From Candidatus Diapherotrites archaeon CG08_land_8_20_14_0_20_30_16 (GTDB lineage: Archaea > Iainarchaeota > Iainarchaeia > Iainarchaeales > 0-14-0-20-30-16), in the NCBI GenBank assembly GCA_002779075.1, contig PEXK01000003.1:1-28318 (forward strand): 28,318 nt of DNA, in the 5' to 3' direction. The notes beneath the pieces are model-generated. The model worked only from the letters and a program-made list of their open reading frames with translations, searched no databases and was not told the origin of the DNA. Positions 12,229-28,318 of this stretch are shown in pieces. Made by a program: the position numbers and the translations under genes. Each line of letters opens with the position of its first letter. Within the stretch, counting starts at the first letter, position 1.

Positions 12229-13743
12229 ATGCTTTTTGAGTTAGGGCTCAAAAAAGATATTAAGAAAGAAGGCCCAAAGAATTATAAAACGAATTTTAAG
12301 TATTCTGAAAGTAATATAGGCTATGATTCTGCTTTTTCTAAAAGATTAGTGTTAGACAACCCAAAAGACATATTTCAGGAATGCGCCCTGTATTACCTTT
12401 TTGATAAAAAAGAACCAAAAATGTTAATAAGAGATTTGGTAAAATTGTCTGCTCAGGAAAAAGGAGTTTTTAAAAAATTCTTTGATTTCCTGAAAGAACT
12501 ACCAATAAGCAATACAAAAAAGGAATTAGAGAGCTATTTTTTACAATTCTTAGAAGAAAATAAAATACTGCTCGATTCTGATCAAAAGAAATACCTCTAC
12601 AATTTGATAGATTTCGAAATAAATGGTTTTGGTGCTTTAACTCCTATACTACGAGACAAAGATAAAATTGAAGAAATTGCAGTAATTGGTCTTGGGATAG
12701 ATAATCCTGTTTTTGCATATGTTTCAAATACAGGGTGGACAAAAACAAACCTTTATTTTACAAATGAAGAATATGTAAAAGAATTAATTAATAAAATGGC
12801 AAGAAATATTGGAAGACAAATATCAATAAACTATCCTTTGCTAAATGCATCTTTGCCAGATGGATCAAGATTAAATGCAATAATCGCCCCTGTAAGTAAT
12901 AGGGATCCAATAATAACACTGAGACGCTTCAAATATAATCCTTTGACACCAATAAATCTAATTAAATATGATACTTTATCAGAAGAAGTAGCTACTTTTT
13001 TATGGCTTGCAATGCTAACTGACTCCAATGTATTAATTGCTGGCAACACAGGTTCAGGGAAAACAACAACATTAAATGCATTATTTAGCTTTGTTCCTCA
13101 AAATGAAAGAGTAATAATTTGTGAAGAAACACCCGAAGTGAATATACCTCACAAACATAAGGTAAAACTGAAAATTGATGAGAAAAAAGGAATAACAATG
13201 AATGAATTAATAATTTCAACTTTAAGAATGAGGCCTGACCGTTTAATAGTTGGAGAAATACGCAGTAAAGAAGAAGTAAATTCTTTTATAGATACTATTT
13301 TAGCAGGACAGGGAAAAGGCTCTTATGCTACCTTTCATGGTCTATCAATACCTGATACTGTTGAAAGATTATTGAAATTAGGGGTATTAGAACAGGACCT
13401 GAATGCTTTGGATTTAATAATTCTTCAGAGACGGTGGAACACAATAGATTTGAAAACAAAAAAACAGTATGAATTAAGAAAAATAGTTGAGATTGCAGAA
13501 TTAGTAGATAAAAAACCAGTACCAATATACAAATACGATTTTGGAACTGGCATTTGGCAAAAAACAAATGAAAGTACAAGAATAAAAAACAAAATAGAAA
13601 TAATCTTCAAAGATAAATTTGAGGATATTTTCAGAGTATATGAAAATAAGCTGAGTGATTTAAACACAAAAACACAAAATATGCAGCAATTCTTTGAAAG
13701 TGTAAATGATTTATGGAGTATAATTTATCATGATATTGAGTAA
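12229..13743 (+). CDS. Type II/IV secretion-family ATPase (archaeal type IV filament assembly ATPase, ArlI/PilB/EpdL-like)
   Basis: 504 aa. Walker A is AGNTGSGKTT, with the PDRLIVGEIR box and the ATFHG His-box typical of the T2SS-E/VirB11 superfamily. Confidence 0.85.
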   Translation: MLFELGLKKDIKKEGPKNYKTNFKYSESNIGYDSAFSKRLVLDNPKDIFQECALYYLFDKKEPKMLIRDLVKLSAQEKGVFKKFFDFLKELPISNTKKELESYFLQFLEENKILLDSDQKKYLYNLIDFEINGFGALTPILRDKDKIEEIAVIGLGIDNPVFAYVSNTGWTKTNLYFTNEEYVKELINKMARNIGRQISINYPLLNASLPDGSRLNAIIAPVSNRDPIITLRRFKYNPLTPINLIKYDTLSEEVATFLWLAMLTDSNVLIAGNTGSGKTTTLNALFSFVPQNERVIICEETPEVNIPHKHKVKLKIDEKKGITMNELIISTLRMRPDRLIVGEIRSKEEVNSFIDTILAGQGKGSYATFHGLSIPDTVERLLKLGVLEQDLNALDLIILQRRWNTIDLKTKKQYELRKIVEIAELVDKKPVPIYKYDFGTGIWQKTNESTRIKNKIEIIFKDKFEDIFRVYENKLSDLNTKTQNMQQFFESVNDLWSIIYHDIE

Positions 13744-14527
13744 TATTAATTTAAAAGAAAACATCCGATTTGTGAAATTCAAGTATCCTTGGGTCTATTT
13801 GAGTAGCTATAAAAAAATAATGTATTTTGTTACAATAATTACTACCTTGTTTTTTTCAACAATATGTTTTCTATATTTCAGAAACCTAGAATACACAATG
13901 TATGTTTTTGTTAGTATTGGTGTTGTTTCTATTGCTTTTTTTTATTATTATCCGTTTGTTTTAAAAAAAGTATTTAATGGAAAAATAGAGAAAGATCTAC
14001 CTTTTTTCTTAATCGATTTGGACATGAAATTAAGTATAGGCCAGGAATTTTTATTATCTTTAAAAGAATTGTCAAAGGAATATGACTTTTTAGGAACTGT
14101 TTTCCAAAAGATTATTGATAATTACAATAAGGGAACATCTTTGCAGAAAAGTTTTAGAGAATATGCAGAAATTTTTGATTCGCAAGATTTCAAAAGAGCT
14201 TTGACGCAAATATTAAATATATATGAGTCAGGCAAGAATTTTAAAGAAAAGGGCCCTTTATTTGAATTAGCAGAAGAATTAATAAATATTCAAACAACAA
14301 AGACAAAACTTTATTCAAACAAATTAGTGATGATTTCATTGTTTTTTATTGCGGTAACTGCAATTTTGCCTGCTTTATTTTTGGTTTTTATAAATATAGG
14401 AAGCATAATACTTGATTTGGGAATTACACCAATACAACTAATATTGATTTTTACAGTTTTGTTTCCCTGTGCTGATTTAGTGATAATTTTTATTATTTTC
14501 AACATTATGCCTGGTTTCTTGAGGTGA
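13730..14527 (+). CDS. Type IV filament platform protein, single T2SS-F domain (TadB/EpdJ-like half-size)
   Basis: 265 aa. An N-terminal TM pair is followed by a cytoplasmic helical domain (DLPFFLIDLDMKLSIGQEF...NKGTSLQKSF...ILNIYESG) and C-terminal TMs. It overlaps the ATPase gene by 14 nt. Confidence 0.7.
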   Translation: MILSNINLKENIRFVKFKYPWVYLSSYKKIMYFVTIITTLFFSTICFLYFRNLEYTMYVFVSIGVVSIAFFYYYPFVLKKVFNGKIEKDLPFFLIDLDMKLSIGQEFLLSLKELSKEYDFLGTVFQKIIDNYNKGTSLQKSFREYAEIFDSQDFKRALTQILNIYESGKNFKEKGPLFELAEELINIQTTKTKLYSNKLVMISLFFIAVTAILPALFLVFINIGSIILDLGITPIQLILIFTVLFPCADLVIIFIIFNIMPGFLR

Positions 14528-14530
14528 ATT

Positions 14531-15430
14531 ATGTTTTTAGACACAACATTGCAAAAGGTTTTAGGGCTGCAAAAATATGATTATTTTGCTTTGGTTTTGA
14601 ACAAGAGCAACAAAACACAACAGGATTTTCAAAAAGAGATTGCAATTATATTTTCTCTATTTATAATTGTAATAACTGCTCTCTTTGTTTTGAGCTATTT
14701 GTCTTTAATTATTTATATTTTGTTATGGCTGGTTTCTTTACCATTAATTTTTATTGGAGTTTATAGTTTAGAGTTGTTTAAAGAAGAGCAAAGACAAAAA
14801 ACAATTGAAAAAAATATTCAAGATATTCTGTTACAGGCGAGTTTATTTCCCAAAGGCACAGAAATTACTAAAATTATTGATTATATAGCAAACCAGAATT
14901 ACAAATACACCTCTGTTGAGTTTAAAATTGCTTTAAAACAAATAAAAAAAGGCTATTCTGTACAAAAATCTTTACAAGAAATCTGTACTAGGAACAAAAG
15001 TAAATTACTGCAAAGAGTAATTGGTTTGTTGATAATAGGATATAAATCAGGAAAAGATATGCATTTTGTTTTTAACAAAATAAGTCAATATATCCTGCAC
15101 ATTCATGAATTAGAAAGAGAAAGGTATTCGAGTTTGGCAATACAAAAATACACTTTATTAATTTCTGCAGCAGTTTTAGTGCCTTTGATCCTGGGTTGGA
15201 TTAAAAATATAATCGCGGGTTTTGATGTTTCAACATTTCAAACATTAGAAATAATAAGCCAGAGCCCAGAAATGAAGGAATATGCAGCAATTGCAACATA
15301 CATCTATTTAGCAGAGTTGTCTGTTATTTCCAGCTTCTTTGTTGCATTAGTAGATGGAAATAAAAAGAAATTTATCTGGTATTTGTTATTTATTCTTCCC
15401 TGTGCGTTTTTGGTTTTCTTTTTAGTTTAA
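14531..15430 (+). CDS. Type IV filament platform protein, single T2SS-F domain (TadC/EpdK-like half-size)
   Basis: 299 aa with the same TM-helical domain-TM layout (IQDILLQASLFPKGT...KKGYSVQKSL...LIIGYKSG). It starts 4 nt after the previous gene. Confidence 0.7.
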   Translation: MFLDTTLQKVLGLQKYDYFALVLNKSNKTQQDFQKEIAIIFSLFIIVITALFVLSYLSLIIYILLWLVSLPLIFIGVYSLELFKEEQRQKTIEKNIQDILLQASLFPKGTEITKIIDYIANQNYKYTSVEFKIALKQIKKGYSVQKSLQEICTRNKSKLLQRVIGLLIIGYKSGKDMHFVFNKISQYILHIHELERERYSSLAIQKYTLLISAAVLVPLILGWIKNIIAGFDVSTFQTLEIISQSPEMKEYAAIATYIYLAELSVISSFFVALVDGNKKKFIWYLLFILPCAFLVFFLV

Positions 15431-18364: not shown

Positions 18365-19147
18365 TTGTATAGTATACAAGAAAATTGTTTCTGGCAAGGT
18401 GAAACTGTGATTGCGCAAAAAATAACAAAAATTGTAGATTATGTTAAAGATGATTTCAAAGGATATTATTTAATAGAAGGAACACCAAGTCCAGATTTAA
18501 TTGCAACAATTGCAACAAGATATTTGGTAGACACTTTAAAATTATTAAAAATTGCACATATTGAAAATCCAAGTATTGTTCCAATTGTAAGAATCAGTAA
18601 TGGTATTGCTGAGCATCCTATAAGAATTTATGCATCAAAAGAATATAAAATTTTAGTTTTGCTTAGTGATCAATTAATTGATAACAACCAAATGTTTGGT
18701 TTTTCTGATGCTTTAATTGAATGGGCAGAAAAAAAGAAAGTTAAAGGAATTATTTCTTTGCTCGGAATGGCCCCAAACAACACTATGCAGGGAATTTATG
18801 GTGCAGGAAACACAAAGAATATTCATGAGTTATTAAAAGCTCATGGCGTACAAATATTAGAGAATGGATTAATTTCTGGTGTTAGCGCAGAATTATTAAT
18901 ACTCGCAAAAAAAATTGATGCCTGTATTTTACTTGCAAATCCAGGACACTCAACAAATTTTGACTGTGCAGCAAAACTATTAGAACTTTTAGGGGCTGTT
19001 TTCAAATTCGAAATAAACACACAGCCATTAGAACAAGAATCAAAAAAAATAATTAGTGCGATAAAAGAAAAAATGCAGCAAATATATGCACAACAACAAA
19101 CAACACAAGGAAATAAAAAAGAAGATAAAGGAATGATGTTCACCTAA
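18365..19147 (+). CDS. PAC2-family proteasome assembly chaperone-like protein
   Basis: 260 aa. YLIEGTPSPDLIATIATRYLVDTL resembles the N-terminal G-rich/hydrophobic block of archaeal PAC2 (COG1938) proteins. The track start is a TTG, so the true start may be slightly downstream. Confidence 0.55.
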   Translation: MYSIQENCFWQGETVIAQKITKIVDYVKDDFKGYYLIEGTPSPDLIATIATRYLVDTLKLLKIAHIENPSIVPIVRISNGIAEHPIRIYASKEYKILVLLSDQLIDNNQMFGFSDALIEWAEKKKVKGIISLLGMAPNNTMQGIYGAGNTKNIHELLKAHGVQILENGLISGVSAELLILAKKIDACILLANPGHSTNFDCAAKLLELLGAVFKFEINTQPLEQESKKIISAIKEKMQQIYAQQQTTQGNKKEDKGMMFT

Positions 19148-19161
19148 AAGTTAAATTAATA

Positions 19162-19587
19162 CTATTTACCTTCAAGACTGTCAAATGTTTTTAATGTTCC
19201 TAAAATTTGTCTTGCTGTTATTTGTAATTTGGATAATTCAGAATCAAAATTAGGACTTTGTTCTCTACCTTTATATTTTAAATATAAATCTTCTACTTTT
19301 ATATTCAATAATTGCAATTCTAAATCTGCAACAATGCGCAAACGACCCAAAACCATTTTTCGCACAACTGGAGTTAATTCATGAATATTCTTTGATCCTA
19401 ACAACAATTCTTTTGCAATAGAATCTAATTTAGACATTTTGGCTAATCTTGATCTTAGTTCTTTCATTTTACGTCTTAATTCTGCACGCTTTTTAATAAC
19501 ATCTATAGCTCTTCTGAGCTTAAATTTCACATCTTCTCTTTCAGCTCTTAACGCTTCTGGTCTTTTAAACTCTGGCTTTTTAGGCAT
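19162..19587 (-). CDS. Hypothetical basic coiled-coil protein
   Basis: 141 aa, rich in K/R/E/L heptad-like sequence. It has its own TATA-like TTTTTAAATC about 25 nt upstream of the ATG. No family was recognised. Confidence 0.5.
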   Translation of the reverse strand: MPKKPEFKRPEALRAEREDVKFKLRRAIDVIKKRAELRRKMKELRSRLAKMSKLDSIAKELLLGSKNIHELTPVVRKMVLGRLRIVADLELQLLNIKVEDLYLKYKGREQSPNFDSELSKLQITARQILGTLKTFDSLEGK

Positions 19588-19625
19588 AATAATAAGTGCA
19601 AAAATAGATTTAAAAATAGGTGCCT

Positions 19626-19658
19626 AAAAAAATAAAAAAAGATGAGGATTTCCCCTCA
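19626..19658 (-). terminator. Hairpin (tgagg-atttcc-cctca) followed by long T-tracts on the minus strand
   Basis: The stem is 19643-19647/19654-19658. The plus-strand A-runs at 19626-19640 become T-runs on the minus strand, directly after the stop of the 258-aa membrane protein gene. Confidence 0.5.
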
Positions 19659-19672
19659 ATAATGTTTTGTAG

Positions 19673-20449
19673 TTACTCTTTTGCAAAGTAGTATGCAATG
19701 CAGAACATATATGCTGAAATTATTGGCAGAATAAAAATCATTGCAATCCAGCCAACAACAGGAATCATACTTATTAAACCAGATACTAATCCCATTATTG
19801 CGCAAACAAACCCTAAAACAAGACCATATACTAAAAGTATTGGTTTCTTGAATGCCTGTGTGAATGCAATACCTAATCCTTGCACAATTCCTGCTCCTAA
19901 TGCAATTTTACCAATCATGCTTAAACAACCAACTATTACATACAATGTTAATGCAATCCCTAAAATTATCGCAATAACAATACCAATAAAAGGTATTAAA
20001 GCAATTAATGAAAGAATAAACAGAATTATTCCTATTGCTATGTAATAAATCAAGAGAGCAATAAATAGTTTAAATCCTGTGTTAAAACAAGAACCCAAAC
20101 CATCAAAAAACTCAATTTTTTTCTTGGCGTCTATTGCATTTATTCTGTTAACAACAAATACTGCAATAACTGATGACAAGTATAGAGTAATTAAACCAAA
20201 CACTATCAGTCCAATTATCAAGCCTGTGCTTAACCGTAAAAGTTTACCTAAACCATCACCAGTCATGAGACTAGTAATAGATGCTGATGTCAAAGAAGTT
20301 GTAATGCCTGCTAACATTATTGCTGAAAATATCAATGCAAAAATTCCGAATATTACTCCAACAATAAGATTTAGAACCAATGTTGGCCAATACAAATCTT
20401 TATTGAAAATTTTCCCAAACACATTTGAGAAATAATCTCCTAATTCCAT
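19673..20449 (-). CDS. Polytopic membrane protein (Gly/Ile/Leu-rich, about 6 TM)
   Basis: 258 aa, almost entirely hydrophobic helices. It is preceded by AGGAGGAG 5 nt upstream of the ATG and a TATA-like CTTATAAATATTT. No family was recognised. Confidence 0.65.
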   Translation of the reverse strand: MELGDYFSNVFGKIFNKDLYWPTLVLNLIVGVIFGIFALIFSAIMLAGITTSLTSASITSLMTGDGLGKLLRLSTGLIIGLIVFGLITLYLSSVIAVFVVNRINAIDAKKKIEFFDGLGSCFNTGFKLFIALLIYYIAIGIILFILSLIALIPFIGIVIAIILGIALTLYVIVGCLSMIGKIALGAGIVQGLGIAFTQAFKKPILLVYGLVLGFVCAIMGLVSGLISMIPVVGWIAMIFILPIISAYMFCIAYYFAKE

Positions 20450-20552
20450 TTTATCTCCTCCTATTCTTTTTTAAAATATTTATAAGTGGCAAACAAGTTG
20501 TAATCTGCAAAAGCTATATTTGATTTGCCAATTCAATATTCTTTTTTAATCA

Positions 20553-20614
20553 ACATATAAAAATATGCTTTAGTGTTACACCCTCGCAGTATATAAAAAT
20601 ATGCTGTTTAGTGT
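20553..20614. repeat. Composite element: direct repeats ATATAAAAATATGCT(G)TTTAGTGT (20554-20575 and 20591-20614) flanking the core TTACACCCTCGCA (20576-20588)
   Basis: Read directly. It abuts the stop codon of the giant gene (20616-20618). The core is identical to 17252-17264. Confidence 0.6.
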
Positions 20615-20615
20615 A

Positions 20616-23600
20616 TTATTCTTCTTTTCTAAATATTGATAAATATAATATTGCAATTACTGTAAATAAACTCAAACAAACAAACAAATATCTTTGTTGG
20701 CCTTCGAACAAAGGGATATCCCATGCCCCTTTGCTTCCTGTTGCTGTGCTTGGTTGATAAAGAGGATTTCCTCCGGGTTTTGTTACGCCAGCAGTATCCC
20801 TCCAACCCTCAGTTGCAAATTTATCACTAAAAGGAAGCATCTGTGAATTTGCAACTGTCCATTCTTTAGTACTTGGATCAAAATAAAATGAACCATTTCT
20901 TCCCTGTGCCATTAATAATGGTGATTTAACACCATTGTATGATAACATTGGTTTGCCATTTTCATTGCTGAATTCTATTGTATGTGGTTTGCCATCTGCT
21001 GTTGTTATTTTCACCCCTTTATCTGTTTGTTCAATTGATTTTATTTCTGAATCTGAAATTACTTTGCCTGTTTTCTTATTTATTGCTCTTAAATATTGTT
21101 TACATTCTCCATTTTCTAATTTAGAGTAAAACATCAAAGCAACATCTGGTGTTTCAAAATACTGGAAAGGCCCAGCTTTCTTTAATGCTTGGTCGAATTT
21201 TTCGCCTTTTTCTTTTGCTGAAACATCGTTTTGATTTCCTAAAACTGACAAATCAAATGTCTGTTCTTCACAGCCAGTTTCTGGATTTGTAACAGTTGTT
21301 GGTGTACCCCAAAATCTTTGAACATCTCTTCCATTTATTGATGCAATAACCTTAATCCAAAGAACAAAATCTCTGTCTGTTTTTCTGTAAATCATTACAC
21401 CTTTCTGGAATTGCACTGCTGCCAGTGTTCCTAAATCTGTTTTCTTTATTGGTGCAATAACATGAACATTTGAATCTACTATTAAACTGTCATCAATATT
21501 TAATCTTTCAACATTGCCGCCCAAAGCAGAGAAATATCTGCCATTAGGAGTTACACTTCCCACATTTTCTGTTTCTATTGCAGTAACTAGGCCAGTATAT
21601 TCAATAGAATTTGTATAGTTAAAGCCTGTTTGTTGTCTTGCGCCACCCATAAAACAAAGCATTGTGCTTGAATCAAGAATTTTGAAATCTCCATTAGGAT
21701 ACATTTGGAAATAATCAACACTTAAATCTGCAGGAATAAAAGTTGCACTCTGTGGAATTTCATAACCCCCAAATATTCCATTTTTAGCTGCAAGTTCAAT
21801 TAAATCGCTTTGCAAAACCTTATTTCCATTGACAAATATTGCATCCTGTGATTTATCTATCAAAACATTAAATGGTTTGTTATCAAATGTTTTGCCAGTT
21901 GCAGAAATCAAACTTTTTTTGTCCTCACCATTAACATTGCATGTTGATCTTGGACCAAACCATGCTAAAAAAATTCCTGGTGTTTCATATTTTCCTGTTG
22001 CAATATTTTTCGTATCATATTCAATTTGCAAAAATTCTTTTTCATTATCTTGAACCAAATTTACAAGTTTATTTTTTATATCATCAATTGCTTTATTCAC
22101 TTTGTCTAATGTATCTTCTGGCTTTGGTGCACCAGCAGTTGCAACAGTTTCTTTGCCTTTTGAAACCAGACCGCCAAGAATACCTTGATTTTCTGATTCT
22201 TTTGTAAACTTATGAACATAATGTATGTAATACCCTTCCTCACTATCAACACAATCTTCAAAATGGTCCATTACTTGAGTATCTATAAGATATGACCCCG
22301 TAGTACCTAAAAGCATTGCAGAAACTCCTGGCAAAAACAACATAGGTACATAGAAAATAGTACTATCAATAAGTCCTACTGCCAAACCAACACGTGATGC
22401 ATTTGCTTTAAACCAATCATCAAAAATAGGTATTTGCCCAAAGAAAGATGTTGCTACTTTATCAAAGCATGTTTCTTTTGCTGATATTGCCTGTTCAATA
22501 TTTATTTTATCATTTACATTTGTTCCTTTACTTGTATTGCCCATATTAAACTCAATATTTGTGTGGTGTGTAAACACAGCTAAACTCAACCCATCCTGCA
22601 AAGTTTTAGAATCTGGGAATTCCAAAATATAATTTTTAGTATCATTTTTTGCAAGTGTTATTACATTAATAATATTTCCTTTTTGTTTTCTTACAACAAC
22701 ACATTCTCTGCAATTTTCTAATGTTGTAATATAATGCACAACATCTTTAACATTATCTCTTGATTTTACACCTGCAAAATCAAAAATAGTTTTTTTCATA
22801 CCTTCATTAGGCATAATAGTTCCAATAGTTTTTGCAATTGTTTTTATAAAAACTTCCCCAAAAAAATCTCCACTTGAAAATGTTTCATTTACAAAAAAAT
22901 CAATATATGCATCATTATATACACCACTTGAGCCTGTAAAAATTTTAACATTGCTCATTTCTTTTTCGCCAACAAAATATGCTTTCAATGGTGAACTTTC
23001 AGATGTTTTCATCATCCAATATACTTGCGGTCCCAAAAAAGTTAACCCAAACTTTTTTATAAAATTTTGAGAGAATGTATATTTCTGTTGATATAGCATC
23101 CAATTTAATAAATTTGCATATTTAGCATCTTGCAATCCGCGAGTTTTCATTGCTATTAACATATCTGCAGACCTGGCCTCTATTTTGGGCATTGTTTTTC
23201 CACCAAATTCAGCAAACAGTTTATGCATTTCATCAACAATAGTTTGTGATTCTTTCTCGCCCAATGCTTTGAAACCACTTTTAGGAACTACGCTAACAGA
23301 TATTTGAGGTAGTCCAGGATATGCTGCTTTTATTGTTTCTAATGTTTGTTCATTTAAATGCACCCAAGAACCATTAACATTAACAACATATTTCTCTGCT
23401 GTTGCTTTAGCTAATCCTTCTAATTTATTTATTGCTACAGGATTAGGCAATGGCGTAGGCGATGCAACCTCTAGTAATGTACGTATCTTTTTATCCTTAA
23501 TGTCTTTGAAAGGTTCAAATTTAGGATCAGATAACCCAGTTCCCAAGATTCCCTTCTTTGCAGGCTTGCTAGCTAATCCTACTATCCCATCTGCACCTTT

Positions 23601-24983
23601 TACCTCTACAAAGTATTTAGCATATTGTGGGTTCTTTTCAAAGAATAAATCAACCATTGATTGCCCTAATCCTGCTGGTGTATCATTTGTTGCTATTAAT
23701 ATATCCCTAACAAGAGCAGGATTTGATTCTGCTGCTATTTTAAGTTGTGCCCCAAGTACACTGGAATATGCTTGCCTTGTTTCTAAAAATTTCGCTAATG
23801 CTCTTTTTTTCCGTGGAGTATCAAGCTTTTCGAAAACTGGTTTAAGAGCTGCTACTAATTTGTCTGAAGAACGTTCTGCAAATGCTTTTTCCAAAGCTTT
23901 AATTTTATCTGCATCTAATCCATCTAGAAGTCCCGTGGCTCTTAAATTTGCTGCTGCTTTTTCTGCAGCTCCTTGATAACCGCCACTAAAAAGTTTATAT
24001 TTTAATGCTTTTATTGGTGACCCTTCTTTATTCAACAAATCTGTTAATCCTGTAAGTTTTGCTGCTTTTTTTGTCAGACCCCAAACTGCGGGTCCTGCAG
24101 CAGTTGCAATCAAACTGCCAGAATAATAACTATTATAAAACCTGTTGAAAAAAGAATAAATGTAAATCTTGCATCTTTCACCTGCATTTGGTCCTGTGCA
24201 TATATCTTGAAAATAAGCAGTAAAATCATCTGTTTGAACATGATTTGGAATTAAAACATTTGATTTTGGTCTTTGAGGTACATCAGCTTTTGCATTCCCT
24301 AGAGCTTCAGGATCATTCCAATCATCTAAAGTTGTTTTTGGGGGGGGGCCAATACCCTCTGTTCCTTCTTTCTTTAAAAATTCGTCTTCTGCTTTTTTTA
24401 TTTCTTCTGGATTTTTCTTTGTAATATTGCTTGTCAAAGTTTTTTCATCAAAAATACCGAAAAAGCTTTGTTCTGCCAAAGCTACACCAGTAACTGAATT
24501 GGAAAACTGCAAACCGCCAACATTCACACTGCAGTTTTGCACTTGCCCCATGCATCTTGCTACCCTTAATGTTTTTTCTAAAATCATTCCATTTGAAAAA
24601 TCGCCAGTACAAGTTTCATGCAATTTAGCATCTTTTTCATCAACACCCTTTGTTTCACAGTCTATTTTAATAGCTCCACCCATTTCTTTTGTTTCATTTA
24701 AAACATTTATCTCTGGGCATTCTTCTGCTGGTGTTTTTTGCGTTTTTGCATTTGTATCATTTACTGCTTTCCCAGAACGCATTTCACTGGGCTTTGCATA
24801 TTGATACAAAAAATTGTTCCAAAGTGACTGTACTTGCTGGGGAGTTAAAACAATTGTTCTGCAAGAGCCCATAAAACAGGCTTCGCTTTTGCATTGATAA
24901 TCTTCAGCATGTACAAAATTAGTGACAAAAATAAATGCAAGGAAAATAAAAAGCAAAGAAAACAACAAAAGTTTAATATTCAT
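20616..24983 (-). CDS. Giant secreted/surface protein, 1455 aa, N-terminal signal peptide and C-terminal TM anchor; no recognised domain
   Basis: The N-terminus MNIKLLLFSLLFIFLAFIFVTNFVHA|EDYQC looks like a Sec signal. A Cys-rich N-terminal region follows. The C-terminus ...YLFVCLSLFTVIAILYLSIFRKEE is a TM helix with a charged tail. Several internal hydrophobic stretches occur. The long uninterrupted ORF in AT-rich DNA is itself strong coding evidence. Confidence 0.85.
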   Translation of the reverse strand: MNIKLLLFSLLFIFLAFIFVTNFVHAEDYQCKSEACFMGSCRTIVLTPQQVQSLWNNFLYQYAKPSEMRSGKAVNDTNAKTQKTPAEECPEINVLNETKEMGGAIKIDCETKGVDEKDAKLHETCTGDFSNGMILEKTLRVARCMGQVQNCSVNVGGLQFSNSVTGVALAEQSFFGIFDEKTLTSNITKKNPEEIKKAEDEFLKKEGTEGIGPPPKTTLDDWNDPEALGNAKADVPQRPKSNVLIPNHVQTDDFTAYFQDICTGPNAGERCKIYIYSFFNRFYNSYYSGSLIATAAGPAVWGLTKKAAKLTGLTDLLNKEGSPIKALKYKLFSGGYQGAAEKAAANLRATGLLDGLDADKIKALEKAFAERSSDKLVAALKPVFEKLDTPRKKRALAKFLETRQAYSSVLGAQLKIAAESNPALVRDILIATNDTPAGLGQSMVDLFFEKNPQYAKYFVEVKGADGIVGLASKPAKKGILGTGLSDPKFEPFKDIKDKKIRTLLEVASPTPLPNPVAINKLEGLAKATAEKYVVNVNGSWVHLNEQTLETIKAAYPGLPQISVSVVPKSGFKALGEKESQTIVDEMHKLFAEFGGKTMPKIEARSADMLIAMKTRGLQDAKYANLLNWMLYQQKYTFSQNFIKKFGLTFLGPQVYWMMKTSESSPLKAYFVGEKEMSNVKIFTGSSGVYNDAYIDFFVNETFSSGDFFGEVFIKTIAKTIGTIMPNEGMKKTIFDFAGVKSRDNVKDVVHYITTLENCRECVVVRKQKGNIINVITLAKNDTKNYILEFPDSKTLQDGLSLAVFTHHTNIEFNMGNTSKGTNVNDKINIEQAISAKETCFDKVATSFFGQIPIFDDWFKANASRVGLAVGLIDSTIFYVPMLFLPGVSAMLLGTTGSYLIDTQVMDHFEDCVDSEEGYYIHYVHKFTKESENQGILGGLVSKGKETVATAGAPKPEDTLDKVNKAIDDIKNKLVNLVQDNEKEFLQIEYDTKNIATGKYETPGIFLAWFGPRSTCNVNGEDKKSLISATGKTFDNKPFNVLIDKSQDAIFVNGNKVLQSDLIELAAKNGIFGGYEIPQSATFIPADLSVDYFQMYPNGDFKILDSSTMLCFMGGARQQTGFNYTNSIEYTGLVTAIETENVGSVTPNGRYFSALGGNVERLNIDDSLIVDSNVHVIAPIKKTDLGTLAAVQFQKGVMIYRKTDRDFVLWIKVIASINGRDVQRFWGTPTTVTNPETGCEEQTFDLSVLGNQNDVSAKEKGEKFDQALKKAGPFQYFETPDVALMFYSKLENGECKQYLRAINKKTGKVISDSEIKSIEQTDKGVKITTADGKPHTIEFSNENGKPMLSYNGVKSPLLMAQGRNGSFYFDPSTKEWTVANSQMLPFSDKFATEGWRDTAGVTKPGGNPLYQPSTATGSKGAWDIPLFEGQQRYLFVCLSLFTVIAILYLSIFRKEE
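24340..24348. repeat. G9 homopolymer (C9 on the coding strand, encoding GPPPK) inside the giant gene
   Basis: Counted directly: ...gttgttttt-ggggggggg-cc... I saw no other G/C run of this length while reading the window. Confidence 0.9.
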
Positions 24984-25004
24984 ATTTTATCACATAATTT
25001 CATT

Positions 25005-25523
25005 TCAAAAAATAATCATTGCTAATAATCCCCCGGGAATCCAGGGAAAAATCATTAAAATTATACTGAGTATTAACCCAATAATCAACATCGTTATATA
25101 TGTATTAAATAGTGAAGATTTAAACTTTAGCTTTTTTAGGAGATATGCCCCGAAGAAAACAAATATCTGCACTATAAAAGTTATGGCTAGAGAATACATC
25201 AAAAAAAGACCAATCAACTTCAAAACAAAAACTAGCTTGTCTGTTGCAATTTCATAACCTTTTAAGGGCAGACCAAAAAACCAAAGCGGGCAAAAGTATA
25301 TCAAAACAACAAAAACAAGCACTAAAATATAGGCTGAAAAAAATGTGGCAAGGTTCCAATTCATTTTCTTTGAAAAAAGATTGAACAAAAACAATCCTGG
25401 ATAATAAACAATTGTCAACACAACACTAGTAATTAGAGAATATATTACTAAACTCTTTAATGTATATAATATAGTTAATAATATAGAAGATACTTCGGGC
25501 ATCTTATAAATAAGGCACAACAT
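25005..25523 (-). CDS. Polytopic membrane protein (about 5 TM), first gene of the giant-protein cluster
   Basis: 172 aa of hydrophobic helices, ending 22 nt before the giant gene ATG. An alternative start at the ATG at 25502 (MPEVSS...) would leave a 50-nt divergent promoter region with two TATA-like boxes. Confidence 0.65.
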   Translation of the reverse strand: MLCLIYKMPEVSSILLTILYTLKSLVIYSLITSVVLTIVYYPGLFLFNLFSKKMNWNLATFFSAYILVLVFVVLIYFCPLWFFGLPLKGYEIATDKLVFVLKLIGLFLMYSLAITFIVQIFVFFGAYLLKKLKFKSSLFNTYITMLIIGLILSIILMIFPWIPGGLLAMIIF

Positions 25524-25537
25524 ATTTAAAGATATTT

Positions 25538-26698
25538 GTGTTCTTTATTTGGATGGTTAAAGATAGGGAAATTGAAAAATTAGTAGATATCTTGAAACCC
25601 CAAGCAAAAAAGTATTCTCAAAAGCAAATTAAATCTGCTATTTTATCTGAAGGTTATGATGAAGACACTGTTCAAGCAGTCTTAGATATTTTGTATCCTG
25701 TTGAAAATAAAAAACCAAATACAAGCAAAGAAGAAGCAAGAACTGAGAGAAGAAAGCAAGAAATAGGAGAAACAAGACAATCACAAAAACAAGAAACAAC
25801 AGTTCAACAAGCAGTTCAACAAAAACCAACAGGGGATGAAAATACACAAAAAGAAGAGTACAAAGACAAGGATTATTATAAAGAAGTAAACTATTTATTG
25901 GGGCAATTAAAAGAAATTAACAAGACAAAAATAACACCATTAAAAGAATTAGAACTTACAAATACGCAATTTGCACAAACTACAAAAACAAATTCTTTAA
26001 GTGCTACTAATTTACAAGATCTTAATACACAGATAGAAAAAAGGAGACAGGAATTAAACAGCATTAAAATAGAACCTGATGATGACTCGAAAATAATTTT
26101 ATCAGATGGAAAGATAATAAATTTAAATGATTATCAAAGAAGAGACTGGAGAAATTACAGAGACAAGGGAAAGACATTAGCAGAAACAAAAGAAGAACAA
26201 ATACAAAAACTAAGACAAGAAATTTACGCATTAAAAAGACAGGCAGGAAGAGAAAAGGAAGTTACACAAGAAGAAAATATTTCAAAAAAGATTTCAGAAA
26301 GAGTAAGGCAAAGGTCACATGGAAGAATACCTGAAAAACAATTAGATATAGCATCAAAAAATGCTGCAGAAAACCTGCGCGAAAAATATAAAACAGAAGA
26401 AATAGAAAGAAAAGATTTAGACACAGCAGCAGATAATATTTATATCCAAATGACAAAAAATCCAAACATTTATGGCGACGAAGAAAAAAAAGAGGAAAAG
26501 GAAAAAGATAAAAAAGTGGAGAATAAAAATAATGAAAAGAAAAAAGAAAGTGATGAGTTGTCTGATTTAAATATAAGCACTGATTTTAACCTTGATTCTG
26601 GTTCAGAAATAAAAGACATTGGTGAAGAATTTAATTTGGGATTAGACTTGAACCTAAATGAAGATGAAAACAAACAAAAAGACAAAAAGAAAAAATAA
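25538..26698 (+). CDS. Highly charged K/E/Q-rich protein with a small structured N-terminal domain; function unknown
   Basis: 386-aa ORF. The likely true start is the ATG at 25553 (MVKDREIEKL...). After about 50 aa the sequence becomes a low-complexity charged/coiled-coil region, ending in an acidic LDLNLNEDE tail and a KKKK terminus. The antisense ORFs here are artefacts of the purine-rich strand. Confidence 0.6.
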   Translation: MFFIWMVKDREIEKLVDILKPQAKKYSQKQIKSAILSEGYDEDTVQAVLDILYPVENKKPNTSKEEARTERRKQEIGETRQSQKQETTVQQAVQQKPTGDENTQKEEYKDKDYYKEVNYLLGQLKEINKTKITPLKELELTNTQFAQTTKTNSLSATNLQDLNTQIEKRRQELNSIKIEPDDDSKIILSDGKIINLNDYQRRDWRNYRDKGKTLAETKEEQIQKLRQEIYALKRQAGREKEVTQEENISKKISERVRQRSHGRIPEKQLDIASKNAAENLREKYKTEEIERKDLDTAADNIYIQMTKNPNIYGDEEKKEEKEKDKKVENKNNEKKKESDELSDLNISTDFNLDSGSEIKDIGEEFNLGLDLNLNEDENKQKDKKKK

Positions 26699-26699
26699 A

Positions 26700-28318
26700 T
26701 TATGAAACAAATACTGTGTTATACACATCAGTAGCAATTACTTTTGAAAACCCGTGTGGGTCTTTTGGCAAAACATTTTTATTAGCAATTATAATTTCTT
26801 GAGTAGTATCAACTACTATATCTACATTTTGGCTACTGCCCAAAGATTTTATCCAAGTATTTAAATTATCAACACCCTCTTTATTTGCTTCTCTTGGCAC
26901 AACAGTTACTGCTACAACTTTTGCACCGTTTGTTTTTGCTAAAGAATATATTTGCAATAAATTCCTTTTTACTGACTTTATATTTGTTCCTGCTGTGCCC
27001 AAATCATTTGTACCACCCAAAACAATTACTAAATCATATTTTTCTCCAGCAGTATATTTTTTTTGTAGTTGAGATAACATCCATGATGTTGGTGCACTAA
27101 CACAAGCTAATGAATCACTTGGGCAACTAGATTGGTTATATGCCGAAGCACTGCTTTTTGAAACTATTTTTCCACAATTTTCTAATATTTTAGATAAATA
27201 ACTAGAATATTTTGCAGTTATTGAATCACCTACTAAAGCAATTCTTATACTAGGGTTACATAATGCCGATGCACTTGTTGTTGTCGAACTAGTGTTTTCT
27301 GCAATTGCACTACCCGCAGATGCTAAACAAACACCCGCAGCACCAGCAATATATGATTGATAATTTGTCCAATAACTTCCTGGTTTTATTCCTGGATTTC
27401 CGGGATAATTTTTAGAGCAAGTAATACTATCGCTATAATTCCCTTCTCCAATTACACAACCTTCGCCAACAACATAAGATTCCGTTGTCATTCTCACACT
27501 ATGTTTATTTTTATATATGTTACCCAAAAGTATTGCCATATACATTATTGCAATTTCTGGATTTGCTCTTGGATCTTTTGAATAATCAATTGGTCCTTTT
27601 GGGTTTGCACCTATTAATAATCCACCACTTGATTGTGTTTTTCCGTTACATGCTTTTGAATATAATTCCCCAAAACTTGCTACACCAAACTTTTCTAATT
27701 GAGACATATCAAACACTGCTAAATAGTCAGAATATTTTCCTGCAGAAATATCTAAAGTAATCTTACAAAATGTTCCTTGCATAAATTGGCCCAGCCCTGT
27801 TGCACTAGAATCAGATCTTTTATTGTCTATATTTGTTTTAAATCCTGATTCATTATGTGCTTGTGTAATAATATTTTTTCCATCCATTGCACCAGCTGTT
27901 TTTGTTTTTAATACTTCGCCATATTTCGCAAATAAATTTGCATAACTTATACATTGCCCATCAGCACCAGTTACTCCAGGTCCAATTGATCCAGTTCCTG
28001 CGCCCAAAGTCCCTTTTGCAATATAACATTTCTTTAAATTTTCTTCAGAACAAAACCCTATTAAATTACTTGCAGAGGTCTCTTTTATTATTCCTTTATA
28101 TTCTCCTGCGCCATTTGGAGTTACATTAAACACATATGCATTTTGTTTTACAAAAAAATCAGGCAAGGCAATATCAATACTTTTTACACCAGAACCCAAA
28201 CTTGAGTTCATTGTTGTTTTCCACGCAAGATTATATGCAACAATTGCAGCACCAGCACTTATTGCTCCTTTCAGCAATCCTTTGCCAAAATTCTTTGTAC
28301 TTTTCCAAAATCTTCCTG
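26700..28318 (-). CDS. Lytic transglycosylase (SLT) domain + SGNH/GDSL hydrolase domain fusion protein; 5' end possibly beyond the window
   Basis: SLT motifs are AHNESGF (catalytic Glu-Ser) and SSATGLGQFMQGTF. SGNH block I is IALVGDSIT and block III is VLGGTNDLG. The hydrophobic LLKGAISAGAAIVAYNLAW near the N-terminus looks like a signal anchor. The frame stays open from the track's TTG (28277) to the window edge. Confidence 0.75.
   Translation of the reverse strand, partial: GRFWKSTKNFGKGLLKGAISAGAAIVAYNLAWKTTMNSSLGSGVKSIDIALPDFFVKQNAYVFNVTPNGAGEYKGIIKETSASNLIGFCSEENLKKCYIAKGTLGAGTGSIGPGVTGADGQCISYANLFAKYGEVLKTKTAGAMDGKNIITQAHNESGFKTNIDNKRSDSSATGLGQFMQGTFCKITLDISAGKYSDYLAVFDMSQLEKFGVASFGELYSKACNGKTQSSGGLLIGANPKGPIDYSKDPRANPEIAIMYMAILLGNIYKNKHSVRMTTESYVVGEGCVIGEGNYSDSITCSKNYPGNPGIKPGSYWTNYQSYIAGAAGVCLASAGSAIAENTSSTTTSASALCNPSIRIALVGDSITAKYSSYLSKILENCGKIVSKSSASAYNQSSCPSDSLACVSAPTSWMLSQLQKKYTAGEKYDLVIVLGGTNDLGTAGTNIKSVKRNLLQIYSLAKTNGAKVVAVTVVPREANKEGVDNLNTWIKSLGSSQNVDIVVDTTQEIIIANKNVLPKDPHGFSKVIATDVYNTVFVS

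What the first reader, a model, noticed from the sequence alone, without database searches (positions are those of the whole stretch)
19162..25523. Membrane-protein / 1455-aa giant surface protein / membrane-protein cluster with no recognisable domains
On the minus strand a 172-aa polytopic membrane protein is followed 22 nt later by a 4.4-kb ORF. This ORF has a clear signal peptide (…FVHA|ED), a Cys-rich N-terminal region, several internal hydrophobic segments and a C-terminal TM anchor (…LFTVIAILYLSIFRKEE). Next come a 258-aa Gly-rich polytopic membrane protein with its own SD and TATA, a hairpin + T-tract terminator, and a basic coiled-coil protein. I recognise no known family in any of the five proteins. 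Giant anchored surface proteins flanked by dedicated membrane partners are strong candidates for a host-attachment or cell-cell contact apparatus in small-genome archaea. This cluster is the largest block of unexplained coding capacity in the window.
Basis: inference. Interest (0 to 1): 0.65.

Follow-up and report, generated by a model that had tools for sequence, protein, structure and literature searches.

The report
Iainarchaeota core envelope protein with partner
The 1455-residue protein is a single-copy surface protein of unknown fold, found in nearly every genome of the tiny-celled archaeal phylum Iainarchaeota, always with a small membrane partner, and in most relatives it sits at the end of a pilus-building and sortase gene cluster, so it is a good candidate part of their cell-contact machinery.

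Summary
The ORFs are real and match no known family. The "membrane–giant–membrane" triad holds only in part.

**The giant (20616-24983, minus strand)**
- It has a Sec signal peptide, a roughly 1400-aa ectodomain with 12 conserved Cys, and a C-terminal TM.
- It is present in 201 of 214 Iainarchaeota (Diapherotrites) genomes, and in 58 of 58 high-quality ones.
- It has only 226 relatives among 1.84 billion proteins.
- It has no Pfam, NCBIfam or PDB match by sequence or by fold.

**The neighbours**
- The upstream 4-TM gene is a true partner. It lies immediately upstream on the same strand in 53 loci.
- The downstream 258-aa membrane gene and the 141-aa coiled-coil gene are lineage-specific neighbours.

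**The wider cluster (outside this genus)**
The conserved gene order is: small archaeosortase, type IV pilus ATPase, platform, 4-7 pilin-like genes, a K/E-rich gene, the 4-TM gene, the giant, a PAC2-like gene, then a second pilus core.

**The C-terminus**
It carries a conserved [LI]P[LS]x motif, then a TM, then a basic tail. This resembles an archaeosortase sorting signal.

**Best reading (about 0.45)**
The giant is an anchored envelope component of a pilus-linked cell-contact apparatus and a probable dedicated sortase substrate. Function is inferred only.

The parts
25005..25523 (-). Small 4-TM membrane partner. The ORF is 172 aa; the likely real start is the ATG at 25502, giving 165 aa. It is co-transcribed with the giant across a 21-nt gap.
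   Evidence: ORF; sequence. The family profile finds it in 53 related loci. In the 51 loci with at least 0.9 kb of upstream flank, a BLAST-clustered member lies within 1.5 kb upstream on the giant's strand in 40; the median gap for the 48-locus cluster is 29 nt. Alignment A2 shows only Y76 and P79 nearly invariant and no conserved polar or catalytic residues. There is no Pfam, NCBIfam or PDB-sequence hit.
20616..24983 (-). 1455-aa core envelope protein, the 'giant'. It has a Sec signal peptide, a disulfide-rich ectodomain and a C-terminal anchor or sorting signal.
   Evidence: It is single-copy, in 201 of 214 genomes of the phylum and 58 of 58 high-quality genomes. It has 226 relatives among 1.84 billion representatives. 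No family or structure match was found.
24906..24983 (-). Signal peptide, residues 1-26. Predicted cleavage is after VHA.
   Evidence: Read from the sequence. The segment is hydrophobic in 100% of homologues. The cleavage site is an inference; no signal-peptide predictor was available.
24054..24905 (-). Cys-rich N-terminal region, residues 27-310. Conserved Cys are C41, C144, C151, C262 and C271. Conserved motifs are GDxAxGxxLxDTLRxGRC and IYSFFDKxYNxxxS...GP.
   Evidence: The AlphaFold model of this part is poor (pLDDT below 50).
23184..24053 (-). Least-conserved middle region, residues 311-600. It is mostly helical and has no Cys.
   Evidence: Conservation bins. The AF2 model shows helices, confident only for residues 340-440 and 510-620. 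Foldseek against PDB found nothing at E below 0.5.
22260..22400 (-). Moderately hydrophobic helical hairpin, residues 862-908. It is followed by the invariant acidic motif C911-V-D913-x-E-E-G917-Y918-Y-x-H.
   Evidence: Family mean Kyte-Doolittle hydropathy is 1.3. The segment reaches TM level in 25% of homologues.
20814..21866 (-). Best-conserved, beta-rich, membrane-proximal domain, residues about 1040-1390. AF2 pLDDT is above 90. Strands fall in groups of about four.
   Evidence: Foldseek gave only weak, non-significant hits, many of them beta-propellers (clathrin NTD, TolB, WD40, Kelch). Best E was 3.6e-3 in PDB and 9.6e-4 in BFVD, with probability 0.2 or less for the top hits and TM-scores near 0.1.
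20619..20720 (-). C-terminal three-part signal, residues 1422-1455. It reads DIPLFEG, then a TM helix (YLFVCLSLFTVIAILYLSIF), then RKEE. Family consensus is N-[LI]-P-[SL]-[LT]-P-E, then TM, then basic residues. P1424 is invariant in alignments A1 (9 sequences) and A3 (nearly invariant; one truncated row).
   Evidence: Among 14 genomes probed, the exact NLPSLPE word was found in 7: in 6 it lies at the giant's C-terminus, and in the seventh (G018) the single hit is on another contig. It matches no known CTERM model.
25538..26698 (+). 386-aa K/E-rich protein transcribed divergently from the 4-TM gene. It is a conserved neighbour. In other lineages it carries about 3 N-terminal TM helices or is split into two genes.
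   Evidence: Cluster 6 is present in 33 loci, always between the pilin block and the 4-TM gene and on the opposite strand.
19673..20449 (-). 258-aa Gly-rich polytopic membrane protein. It is NOT part of the conserved unit. It has its own SD/TATA and terminator.
   Evidence: Homologues occur only in the window's family. It is adjacent to the giant only in genus g1 and lies on other contigs in genus g2. The EI24/CysZ hit is weak (E 1.1e-5) and below the cut-off.
19162..19587 (-). 141-aa basic coiled-coil ORF. It is NOT part of the conserved unit.
   Evidence: No homologue in any of the 69 related loci, including the closest relative. No family hit.
18365..19147 (+). PAC2-family protein, convergent with the giant. 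It is a conserved member of the neighbourhood.
   Evidence: Pfam PAC2, E 2.1e-28. It is within 6 kb downstream on the opposite strand in 25 of 38 loci, and also in the deep orders.
12229..15430 (+). Second type IV filament core: a T2SSE ATPase plus two half-size T2SSF platform genes. It is convergent with the giant and sits at the conserved downstream end of the neighbourhood.
   Evidence: Cluster HMMs match C34 12220-13740, 13724-14524 and 14528-15427. The same arrangement is found in 18-22 of 38 loci and in the deep orders.
26700..28316 (-). C-terminal end of a giant protein carrying SLT lytic transglycosylase and GDSL/SGNH esterase domains. It runs off the contig. It sits where the pilin block lies in most other genera.
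   Evidence: Pfam. In the closest relative the corresponding gene is 2930 aa with an Amidase_2 domain.

Best explanation
The 1455-aa protein and the small 4-TM protein encoded just upstream form a two-gene unit that is a core, single-copy feature of the phylum Iainarchaeota.

Proposed life of the giant:
- It is exported by Sec and its signal peptide is removed.
- Its roughly 1400-aa ectodomain folds with up to six disulfides.
- It stays on the outer face of the membrane, held by its C-terminus.

The C-terminus has the three-part layout of an exosortase/archaeosortase sorting signal. That is a conserved [LI]P[SL]x(P)E motif, a TM helix and a basic tail. A small archaeosortase of a new subfamily, with the family's conserved Cys, Arg and His, is encoded in the same conserved neighbourhood in most of the phylum. 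I therefore propose that the giant is its dedicated substrate. By analogy with ArtA and PGF-CTERM, the TM would be cut off and the protein fixed to a lipid.

The conserved membrane-proximal beta-rich domain would sit on the membrane next to the 4-TM partner. The less-conserved helical middle and the Cys-rich N-terminal region would project outwards.

In 35 of 37 informative loci the pair ends a block of type IV pilus ATPase, platform and 4-7 pilin-like genes. It also faces a second pilus core. I therefore read it as the fixed envelope component (dock, collar or adhesin base) of a pilus-linked cell-surface or cell-contact apparatus.

Shown here: the gene pair, its distribution, the domain layout, conserved Cys, the C-terminal motif, the synteny, and the sortase residues.

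Inferred: export, disulfides, sortase processing, any contact with pilus parts, and any role in cell contact.
For: Distribution:
- 58 of 60 relatives.
- 201 of 214 genomes of the phylum, 58 of 58 high-quality genomes and 76 of 79 genera, almost always one copy.
- Only 226 relatives among 1.84 billion proteins.

Partner:
- The 4-TM gene profile finds it in 53 loci; in almost all of them it lies just upstream of the giant on the same strand.

Ectodomain:
- 12 Cys conserved in at least 94% of 52 sequences. They are spread over the N-terminal, middle and C-terminal parts.
- Only the N-terminal and C-terminal segments are robustly hydrophobic.

Context:
- Pilin-like genes lie upstream on the same strand in 35 of 37 loci, and the platform in 25 of 29.
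- A class III-type signal, [KR][GA]Q plus a hydrophobic 20-mer, occurs in 84 of 101 and 36 of 38 members of two pilin clusters.
- T2SSE and T2SSF Pfam hits.
- The same gene order is kept in three of six loci fetched from other orders of the class. Two more carry the same genes with part of the block inverted.
- Prepilin peptidase is present in 25 of 25 relatives, usually in two copies.

Sortase:
- Pfam Exosortase_EpsH hits in 23 of 30 relatives.
- In six genomes a cluster-linked copy lies beside or within a few genes of the pilus ATPase gene.
- It has conserved LCTG, FNxxRI and THDxLFR motifs.
- It passes the TIGR04178 signature cut-off but no named subfamily cut-off.
- In the sister genus, where the block is rearranged, the sortase lies 4.2-4.6 kb from the giant.

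C-terminal motif:
- Conserved across 51 sequences and in the deep orders.
- The exact NLPSLPE word was found in 7 of 14 genomes tested. In 6 of them it lies at the giant's C-terminus.

Precedent:
- Archaeal type IV pilus loci often include a large Cys-rich 'S-layer-like' protein with a C-terminal TM, or a PilY-like adhesin (Makarova et al. 2016, PMC4858521).
Against: - In this window's own genus the pair is detached from both the pilin block and the sortase. These lie on contigs C28, C37, C41 and C40. The linkage is therefore not obligatory.
- The sortase is 12-15 kb from the giant in most genomes and lies beside the ATPase and the giant-protein array instead.
- A housekeeping-looking PAC2 gene shares the same conserved synteny, so part of the neighbourhood may be historical rather than functional.
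- A TM plus a basic tail is what any type I anchor has. The motif matches no known CTERM class.
- No other protein in this genome shares the motif. That fits a dedicated pair, but it equally fits 'not a sorting signal'.
- No structural or sequence similarity to any pilus component, adhesin or S-layer protein was found.
Confidence: 0.45

Rival explanations
1. It is the main S-layer (cell-wall lattice) protein of Iainarchaeota. The 4-TM protein would be an assembly or anchoring helper, and the pilus neighbourhood would reflect only that pili must cross the S-layer.
For: - No canonical S_layer_N (PF05123) protein in 30 relatives.
- It is a universal, single-copy, large exported protein with a C-terminal anchor.
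- A sortase-type C-terminal signal is exactly how the Haloferax S-layer glycoprotein is anchored (established knowledge: ArtA/PGF-CTERM).
- Makarova et al. 2016 label similar proteins in pilus loci 'S-layer-like'.
Against: - 19 Cys, 12 of them conserved. [quoted passage not shown]
- The architecture mixes helical parts, a hydrophobic hairpin and a beta-rich part. From general knowledge, that differs from the Ig-like arrays of solved archaeal S-layer proteins.
- Sequon density is unremarkable, 0.82 per 100 aa.
- The same genome has a 730-aa Ig-like (ASH/Cep192-type) anchored protein with 1.9 sequons per 100 aa. It evolves like a typical outer-surface protein and is detectable only within the family.
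- Abundance could not be tested.
Confidence: 0.22
2. It is a stand-alone host-attachment adhesin with dedicated membrane partners on both sides. It would be unrelated to pili or sortase.
For: - An anchored ectodomain whose distal (N-terminal and middle) parts evolve faster than the membrane-proximal part.
- A conserved upstream membrane partner.
- In this genus the pair stands apart from the pilus block.
Against: - The downstream membrane gene is not conserved.
- Phylum-wide single-copy conservation, with E-values of 1e-60 to 1e-90 across families, is unlike diversifying adhesins.
- The fixed position behind pilin genes in 35 of 37 loci is unexplained by this reading.
Confidence: 0.15
3. It is a membrane-active protein, fusogen-like or pore-forming. 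Its internal amphipathic helical hairpin would insert into a partner cell's membrane to open a cytoplasmic bridge.
For: - It is a type I anchored, disulfide-rich ectodomain.
- It has one internal, moderately hydrophobic helical hairpin followed by an invariant acidic motif.
- DPANN archaea are reported to form cytoplasmic connections with hosts (PMC11329633).
Against: - No fold similarity to viral or cellular fusogens or pore-formers. Foldseek against PDB and BFVD gave only weak, non-significant hits, many to propeller-type folds. For the N-half, helical-bundle hits had E of 0.5 or more.
- The hairpin reaches TM-level hydrophobicity in only a quarter of homologues.
Confidence: 0.06

Closest known systems
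Large 'S-layer-like' proteins with a C-terminal TM domain encoded in archaeal type IV pilus loci, for example Thermoproteales clades 4B/D/E/G (Makarova, Koonin & Albers 2016, PMC4858521)
   Same: - A large exported protein with a C-terminal TM.
- Multiple conserved cysteines.
- Encoded beside a secretion ATPase, a TadC-like platform and several pilin-like genes.
- Function inferred from context only.
   Different: - No detectable sequence relationship.
- Restricted to Iainarchaeota, where it is universal and single-copy.
- Has a dedicated 4-TM partner.
- Lies between two pilus cores.
- Has a conserved sortase-type C-terminal motif.
- That survey's text contains no mention of DPANN, Diapherotrites or AR10.
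Haloferax volcanii S-layer glycoprotein and archaeosortase ArtA (PGF-CTERM system; Haft et al. 2012, from established knowledge)
   Same: - A C-terminal motif, TM and basic-tail layout.
- An exosortase/archaeosortase-family enzyme with conserved Cys, Arg and His in the genome.
- A large envelope protein as target.
   Different: - The motif is [LI]P[SL]x(P)E, not PGF, and matches no CTERM model.
- The sortase is half the size (about 180-190 aa) and reaches no named subfamily cut-off.
- It appears to have one dedicated target rather than many.
- Processing is untested.
PilY1/PilC pilus-associated adhesins of bacterial type IVa pili
   Same: - A large Sec-exported non-pilin protein encoded after a row of minor-pilin genes.
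- A C-terminal beta-rich domain. PilY1 has a modified beta-propeller; here there are only weak propeller-type Foldseek hints.
   Different: - No PilY1 or DUF2341 family hit.
- PilY1 is not among the 50 best PDB fold matches listed.
- The giant has a C-terminal membrane anchor or sorting signal.
- It is twice separated from the pilins by an opposite-strand gene and the 4-TM gene.
The five >1,800-aa membrane-anchored proteins in a 42-kb region of Candidatus Forterrea multitransposorum (Probst & Banfield 2018, PMC5905446)
   Same: - Same phylum.
- Same wider surface-protein neighbourhood. In two of six genomes examined, an N-terminally anchored giant lies next to the cluster-linked sortase, and a similar giant lies further out in two more.
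- Proposed role in cell-cell interaction.
   Different: - Those are larger, N-terminally anchored paralogues.
- The present family (1629 aa in Forterrea, locus L078) is unrelated in sequence and C-terminally anchored.
- That paper does not single it out.

Membership tests
Archaeosortase/exosortase substrate (CTERM sorting signal) | C-terminal three-part signal: a short conserved motif, a TM helix and a basic cluster at the extreme C-terminus | tested here: met
   The consensus is N[LI]P[SL][LT]PE, a roughly 20-aa TM, then R/K, in 51 sequences. P1424 is nearly invariant in A3 and invariant in A1. The deep orders keep the LP[LS] core. The window has DIPLFEG, TM, RKEE.
Archaeosortase/exosortase substrate (CTERM sorting signal) | Match to a described CTERM domain class (PGF-, PEF-, VPXXXP-, PIP-, PEP-CTERM) | tested here: not met
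   No NCBIfam hit for the whole protein, for its last 94 residues, or for a consensus-type tail at E up to 1.
Archaeosortase/exosortase substrate (CTERM sorting signal) | A cognate sortase with the family's conserved Cys, Arg and His in the same genome | tested here: met
   PF09721 hits in 23 of 30 relatives. TIGR04178 is above its cut-off for the cluster-linked copies and for two copies in the window's genome, on C40 and C15. The LCTG, NxxRI and THD motifs are conserved.
Archaeosortase/exosortase substrate (CTERM sorting signal) | Genomic linkage or co-occurrence of sortase and target | tested here: inconclusive
   The two share a conserved neighbourhood, 12-15 kb apart, in six genomes examined and in two deep orders. 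They are 4.2-4.6 kb apart in the sister genus. They are unlinked in the window's genus.
Archaeosortase/exosortase substrate (CTERM sorting signal) | Actual C-terminal cleavage and lipid attachment | not testable with these tools
   This needs mass spectrometry of the mature protein.
Archaeal S-layer protein | A recognised S-layer domain (for example Pfam S_layer_N PF05123) | tested here: not met
   No Pfam hit in the giant or in 51 homologues. PF05123 is absent from 30 relatives.
Archaeal S-layer protein | Very high abundance and a 2-D lattice on the cell | not testable with these tools
No proteomic or imaging data were available.
Archaeal S-layer protein | Typical composition: few Cys and many N-glycosylation sequons | tested here: not met
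   19 Cys, 12 of them conserved. 0.82 sequons per 100 aa against 1.9 for an Ig-like anchored protein in the same genome.
PilY1/PilC-type pilus adhesin | PilY1 C-terminal propeller or DUF2341 domain detectable | tested here: not met
   No Pfam hit. Foldseek gave only weak, non-significant hits. The top 50 PDB hits include generic propellers but not PilY1.
PilY1/PilC-type pilus adhesin | Encoded downstream of minor-pilin genes | tested here: inconclusive
   True in 35 of 37 related loci. Not true in this window's genus, where the pilin block is on other contigs.
Type IV pilus-locus 'S-layer-like' large protein (sensu Makarova et al. 2016) | A large exported protein with a C-terminal TM and conserved Cys, encoded in a neighbourhood with a T2SSE ATPase, a TadC/T2SSF platform and pilins | tested here: met
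   This is a contextual class, not a homology family. arCOG assignment could not be tested.
Fusexin or viral-type membrane fusogen | Fold similarity to class I, II or III fusion proteins | tested here: not met
   Foldseek of the C-half against PDB and BFVD, and of the N-half against PDB, found no such match.
EI24/CysZ (for the 258-aa neighbour only) | Pfam PF07264 above its gathering score | tested here: not met
   26 bits against a cut-off of 32, E 1.1e-5.

The most novel reading that the evidence does not exclude
The small cluster-linked enzyme would be a new archaeosortase class. The ~1500-aa protein would be its single dedicated substrate, carrying a new '[LI]P[SL]xPE-CTERM' signal. Once lipid-anchored and seated beside its 4-TM partner, it would form the base or docking collar of a phylum-specific, type IV pilus-driven cell-contact organelle. 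That organelle would also deploy the neighbouring giant fibre proteins, some tipped with bacterial cell-wall hydrolases.
Probability: 0.2. Interest if true: 0.75.

Novelty: new variant of a known kind. Interest (0 to 1): 0.55.

Why it matters
Iainarchaeota are uncultivated DPANN archaea with small genomes. How they touch, feed on or attack other cells is unknown.

This protein matters for four reasons:
- Every good genome of the phylum keeps it, in one copy.
- It takes about 0.6% of the genome (4.4 kb of this 0.75-Mb assembly).
- It has no relatives elsewhere and no known fold.
- Its gene is usually tied to pilus genes and a sortase.

That makes it a concrete, testable entry point. It could serve as an antigen or tag for locating the apparatus by cryo-ET in enrichments. 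It is a candidate first substrate for a new archaeosortase subfamily. It is also a phylum marker for surface biology. The work corrects the idea that both flanking membrane genes belong to it.

Tried and rejected
Searches that found nothing:
- Pfam and NCBIfam on all window proteins.
- Pfam on 51 homologues and on six distant relatives.
- PDB sequence search with the single protein and with three profiles. There were no hits below E 0.07.
- AlphaFold2 of residues 601-1455 (pLDDT 73.6) and of 1-620 (pLDDT 59.5). Foldseek of these against PDB and BFVD gave nothing convincing. One BFVD hit had E 9.6e-4, but with probability 0.18 and TM-score below 0.1.

Ideas rejected:
- The 4-TM partner as an archaeosortase, rhomboid or CPBP-type enzyme. 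It has no conserved Cys, His, Ser, Asp or Glu.
- Residues 287-307 and 641-660 as TM helices, which would have made the middle region cytoplasmic. They are not hydrophobic across the family.
- Another anchored giant in the genome (1005 aa) as a distant paralogue. hhalign probability was 0.1%.
- Joining contig C41 to the end of the window. The ends do not overlap, and C41 carries unrelated genes after the last pilin gene.

Searches that were uninformative:
- The word-index homologue search was insensitive here. It found 2 hits for the giant and 6 for the partner.
- Pfam does not recognise the pilin-like proteins even at E up to 5. They are called pilin-like from the class III-type motif and their context only.

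Full report
**1. Observation**

- 172 aa at 25005-25523
- 1455 aa at 20616-24983
- 258 aa at 19673-20449
- 141 aa at 19162-19587

A 386-aa K/E-rich gene (25538-26698) runs divergently on the plus strand.

Reading the DNA shows:
- a 21-nt gap between the first two genes;
- a 166-nt AT-rich spacer after the giant;
- a GGAGGAG Shine-Dalgarno in front of the 258-aa gene;
- a GAGGGGAAATCCTC hairpin with a T-run behind the 258-aa gene.

None of these proteins passes a Pfam or NCBIfam threshold. Flanking genes identify an archaeon: Alba and PAC2. The window has about 30% G+C.

**2. Who has it**

The word-index search found only one relative, at 51% identity. Whole-genome searches showed much more:
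- a ~1500-aa homologue in 58 of 60 relatives;
- with a profile of residues 601-1455, a homologue in 201 of 214 genomes of the phylum;
- this includes 58 of 58 high-quality genomes and 76 of 79 genera, almost always as one copy.

Record titles name the group: Candidatus Iainarchaeum, Diapherotrites, AR10 and Forterrea multitransposorum.

An exhaustive HMMER scan of 1.84 billion representatives found only 226 relatives. Distant ones carry no Pfam domain. This is a phylum-restricted core family, not a variable adhesin.

**3. Anatomy of the giant**

Across 52 full-length sequences, only the N-terminal signal and the C-terminal helix are robustly hydrophobic. A helical hairpin at residues 862-908 is moderately hydrophobic.

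Twelve cysteines are conserved in at least 94% of sequences: C41, C144, C151, C262, C271, C758, C761, C839, C911, C1110, C1238 and C1294. They are spread over the whole chain apart from the middle region (residues 311-600), which has none. This fits one long extracellular domain.

Conservation rises towards the membrane-proximal C-terminus.

AlphaFold2 results:
- Residues 601-1455 gave pLDDT 73.6. There is a very confident beta-rich block at about 1040-1390.
- Residues 1-620 gave pLDDT 59.5. Only the helical stretches are confident.

Foldseek found no convincing match. The best results were non-significant hits, many to propeller-type folds, and helical-bundle hits for the N-half at E of 0.5 or more. 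Profile searches of PDB sequences found nothing.

**4. Which neighbours belong**

In 69 loci fetched from species genomes:
- A ~165-190-aa, 4-5-TM gene lies immediately upstream on the same strand. A profile of it finds 53 loci. The median gap is 29 nt.
- Its alignment has only Y76 and P79 nearly invariant and no conserved polar residues. It looks like a structural partner, not an enzyme.
- The family alignment, and the 165-aa form on record, put the start at Met8.
- The 258-aa membrane gene exists only in the window's family. It is adjacent to the giant only in the window's genus.
- The 141-aa ORF has no homologue at all.
- The K/E-rich divergent gene is conserved in place in 33 loci. Elsewhere it often has N-terminal TM helices.

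**5. The wider neighbourhood**

Clustering all neighbours and annotating them showed the following.

In 35 of 37 loci with enough upstream sequence, the pair is preceded on the same strand by 4-7 small genes with class III-type signals. These signals are [KR][GA]Q or KGF followed by a hydrophobic 20-mer. Upstream of those lie a ~750-aa T2SSF platform (25 of 29 loci) and a 750-800-aa T2SSE ATPase.

Downstream and convergent lie a PAC2-family gene, two half-size T2SSF genes and a ~500-aa T2SSE ATPase. In the window these are at 18365-19147 and 12229-15430.

The same order is kept in three of six loci from other orders of the class. Two more (L084, L085) carry the same genes with part of the block inverted, and the sixth covers only the K/E-rich gene, the 4-TM gene and part of the giant. 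In these orders the giant has diverged far from the profile (E-values 1e-22 to 1e-129).

Prepilin peptidases are present in 25 of 25 relatives, usually in two copies.

In the window's own genome the pilin block, platform and ATPase exist, but on other contigs (C28, C41, C37). Contig C41 continues into unrelated genes. So in this genus the pair has been separated from the block. In its place lies the end of a giant protein with SLT and GDSL domains. In the closest relative that gene is 2930 aa with an Amidase_2 domain.

**6. Sortase link**

I tested this.

The enzyme:
- Exosortase_EpsH hits occur in 23 of 30 relatives, often in two copies.
- One copy lies 12-15 kb upstream of the giant. In six genomes it lies beside or within a few genes of the pilus ATPase gene, directly adjacent in two.
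- In two of them it also sits next to an N-terminally anchored giant like those noted in Forterrea (PMC5905446).
- These ~180-190-aa proteins keep LCTG, FNxxRI and THDxLFR motifs.
- They pass the TIGR04178 signature cut-off but no named subfamily cut-off.
- A profile of them finds a copy in the window's genome (C40), in two deep orders, and 4.2-4.6 kb from the giant in the sister genus.

The signal:
- The giant's C-terminus has a conserved N[LI]P[SL][LT]PE motif. The window reads DIPLFEG, and the deep orders read LPLFPQ, LPLLEP and LPSLGE.
- The motif sits directly before the TM and a basic tail.
- The exact NLPSLPE word was found in 7 of 14 genomes probed. In 6 of them it lies at the giant's C-terminus. 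In G018 the single hit is on another contig, and G021 has one extra out-of-frame hit.
- No other C-terminally anchored protein in this genome shares the motif.
- No known CTERM model matches.

**7. S-layer rival**

- Canonical S_layer_N is absent from the group. The Micrarchaeota S-layer protein, by contrast, has it (bioRxiv 10.1101/2021.04.28.441871).
- The giant's many conserved Cys and its mixed architecture are unlike typical S-layer proteins.
- The genome has a 730-aa Ig-like anchored protein, richer in sequons, that evolves like a typical outer-surface protein.
- Abundance data would decide between the readings.

**8. Comparison and verdict**

The closest described kind is the large, Cys-rich 'S-layer-like' protein with a C-terminal TM. 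A related kind is the PilY-like adhesin. Makarova et al. found both in archaeal type IV pilus loci (PMC4858521). The text of that survey does not mention DPANN or Diapherotrites.

Cryo-ET of another DPANN archaeon shows an unidentified barrel-shaped complex under its S-layer at contact sites (PMC11329633). This is a lead only.

I file the find as a new variant of a known kind. It is an orphan-fold, phylum-universal envelope protein with a dedicated 4-TM partner. It usually ends a sortase-plus-pilus gene cluster and carries a probable new sortase signal. All functional steps are inferred.

Noticed in passing
window 26700-28316 (-), runs off the contig end: An SLT lytic transglycosylase plus GDSL/SGNH esterase forms the C-terminal end of a giant protein in an archaeon. 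The closest relative's gene is 2930 aa with an Amidase_2 domain. It sits where the pilin block lies in other genera. It is a candidate tool for cutting bacterial cell walls.
   Followed up: partly
window 18365-19147 (+); second copy at genome contig C39 38574-39362: A PAC2-family ('proteasome assembly chaperone') gene is a fixed member of the pilus/giant neighbourhood. It is in 25 of 38 loci and in the deep orders, always between the giant and the second pilus core. A second, more distant PAC2 homologue lies elsewhere in the genome. The cluster-linked copy may therefore have a role other than proteasome assembly.
   Followed up: partly
window 24340-24348: A run of nine C followed by five A on the coding strand of the giant (GPPPKT). 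This is unusual in 30% G+C DNA. The closest relative reads EPRPN at that place in the protein alignment (PPP is not conserved).
   Followed up: partly
loci L088-L093 (for example L091 5153-5731, L092 12180-12752); genome contigs C40 12722-13342 and C15 2-514: Small (~180-190 aa) exosortase/archaeosortase-family proteins that pass the TIGR04178 cut-off but fit no named subfamily. Many Iainarchaeota genomes have two paralogues, one of them linked to the pilus/giant cluster.
   Followed up: partly
window 25524-25537: Only 14 nt separate the annotated divergent starts of the 4-TM gene and the K/E-rich gene. With the likelier starts (25502 for the 4-TM gene) the shared promoter region is still only a few tens of bases.
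   Followed up: no
window 20560-20615: Just after the giant's stop codon, a GC-rich core (coding-strand TGCGAGGGTGTAA) is flanked on both sides by the direct repeat CATATTTTTATAT. It may be a terminator or a processing signal.
   Followed up: no
loci L082, L083, L086, L089-L093 (for example L091 5809-8097): The ATPase of the upstream pilus system is unusually long (750-800 aa against about 500 aa for the downstream system). It carries an N-terminal extension with a Cys-containing motif (…HLIFDC.xC…).
   Followed up: no
loci L053 15217-16092 (-), L056 15335-16270 (-): In 21 loci a ~290-aa protein lies between the giant and the PAC2 gene. It has an N-terminal anchor and many short Cys-containing repeats. 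It is absent from this window.
   Followed up: no
genome contig C3 15171-17390 (+): A 730-aa anchored protein with Ig-like (ASH/Cep192-type) domains and a high density of N-glycosylation sequons. It is detectable only within the family. It is a more typical S-layer-like candidate for this organism.
   Followed up: partly
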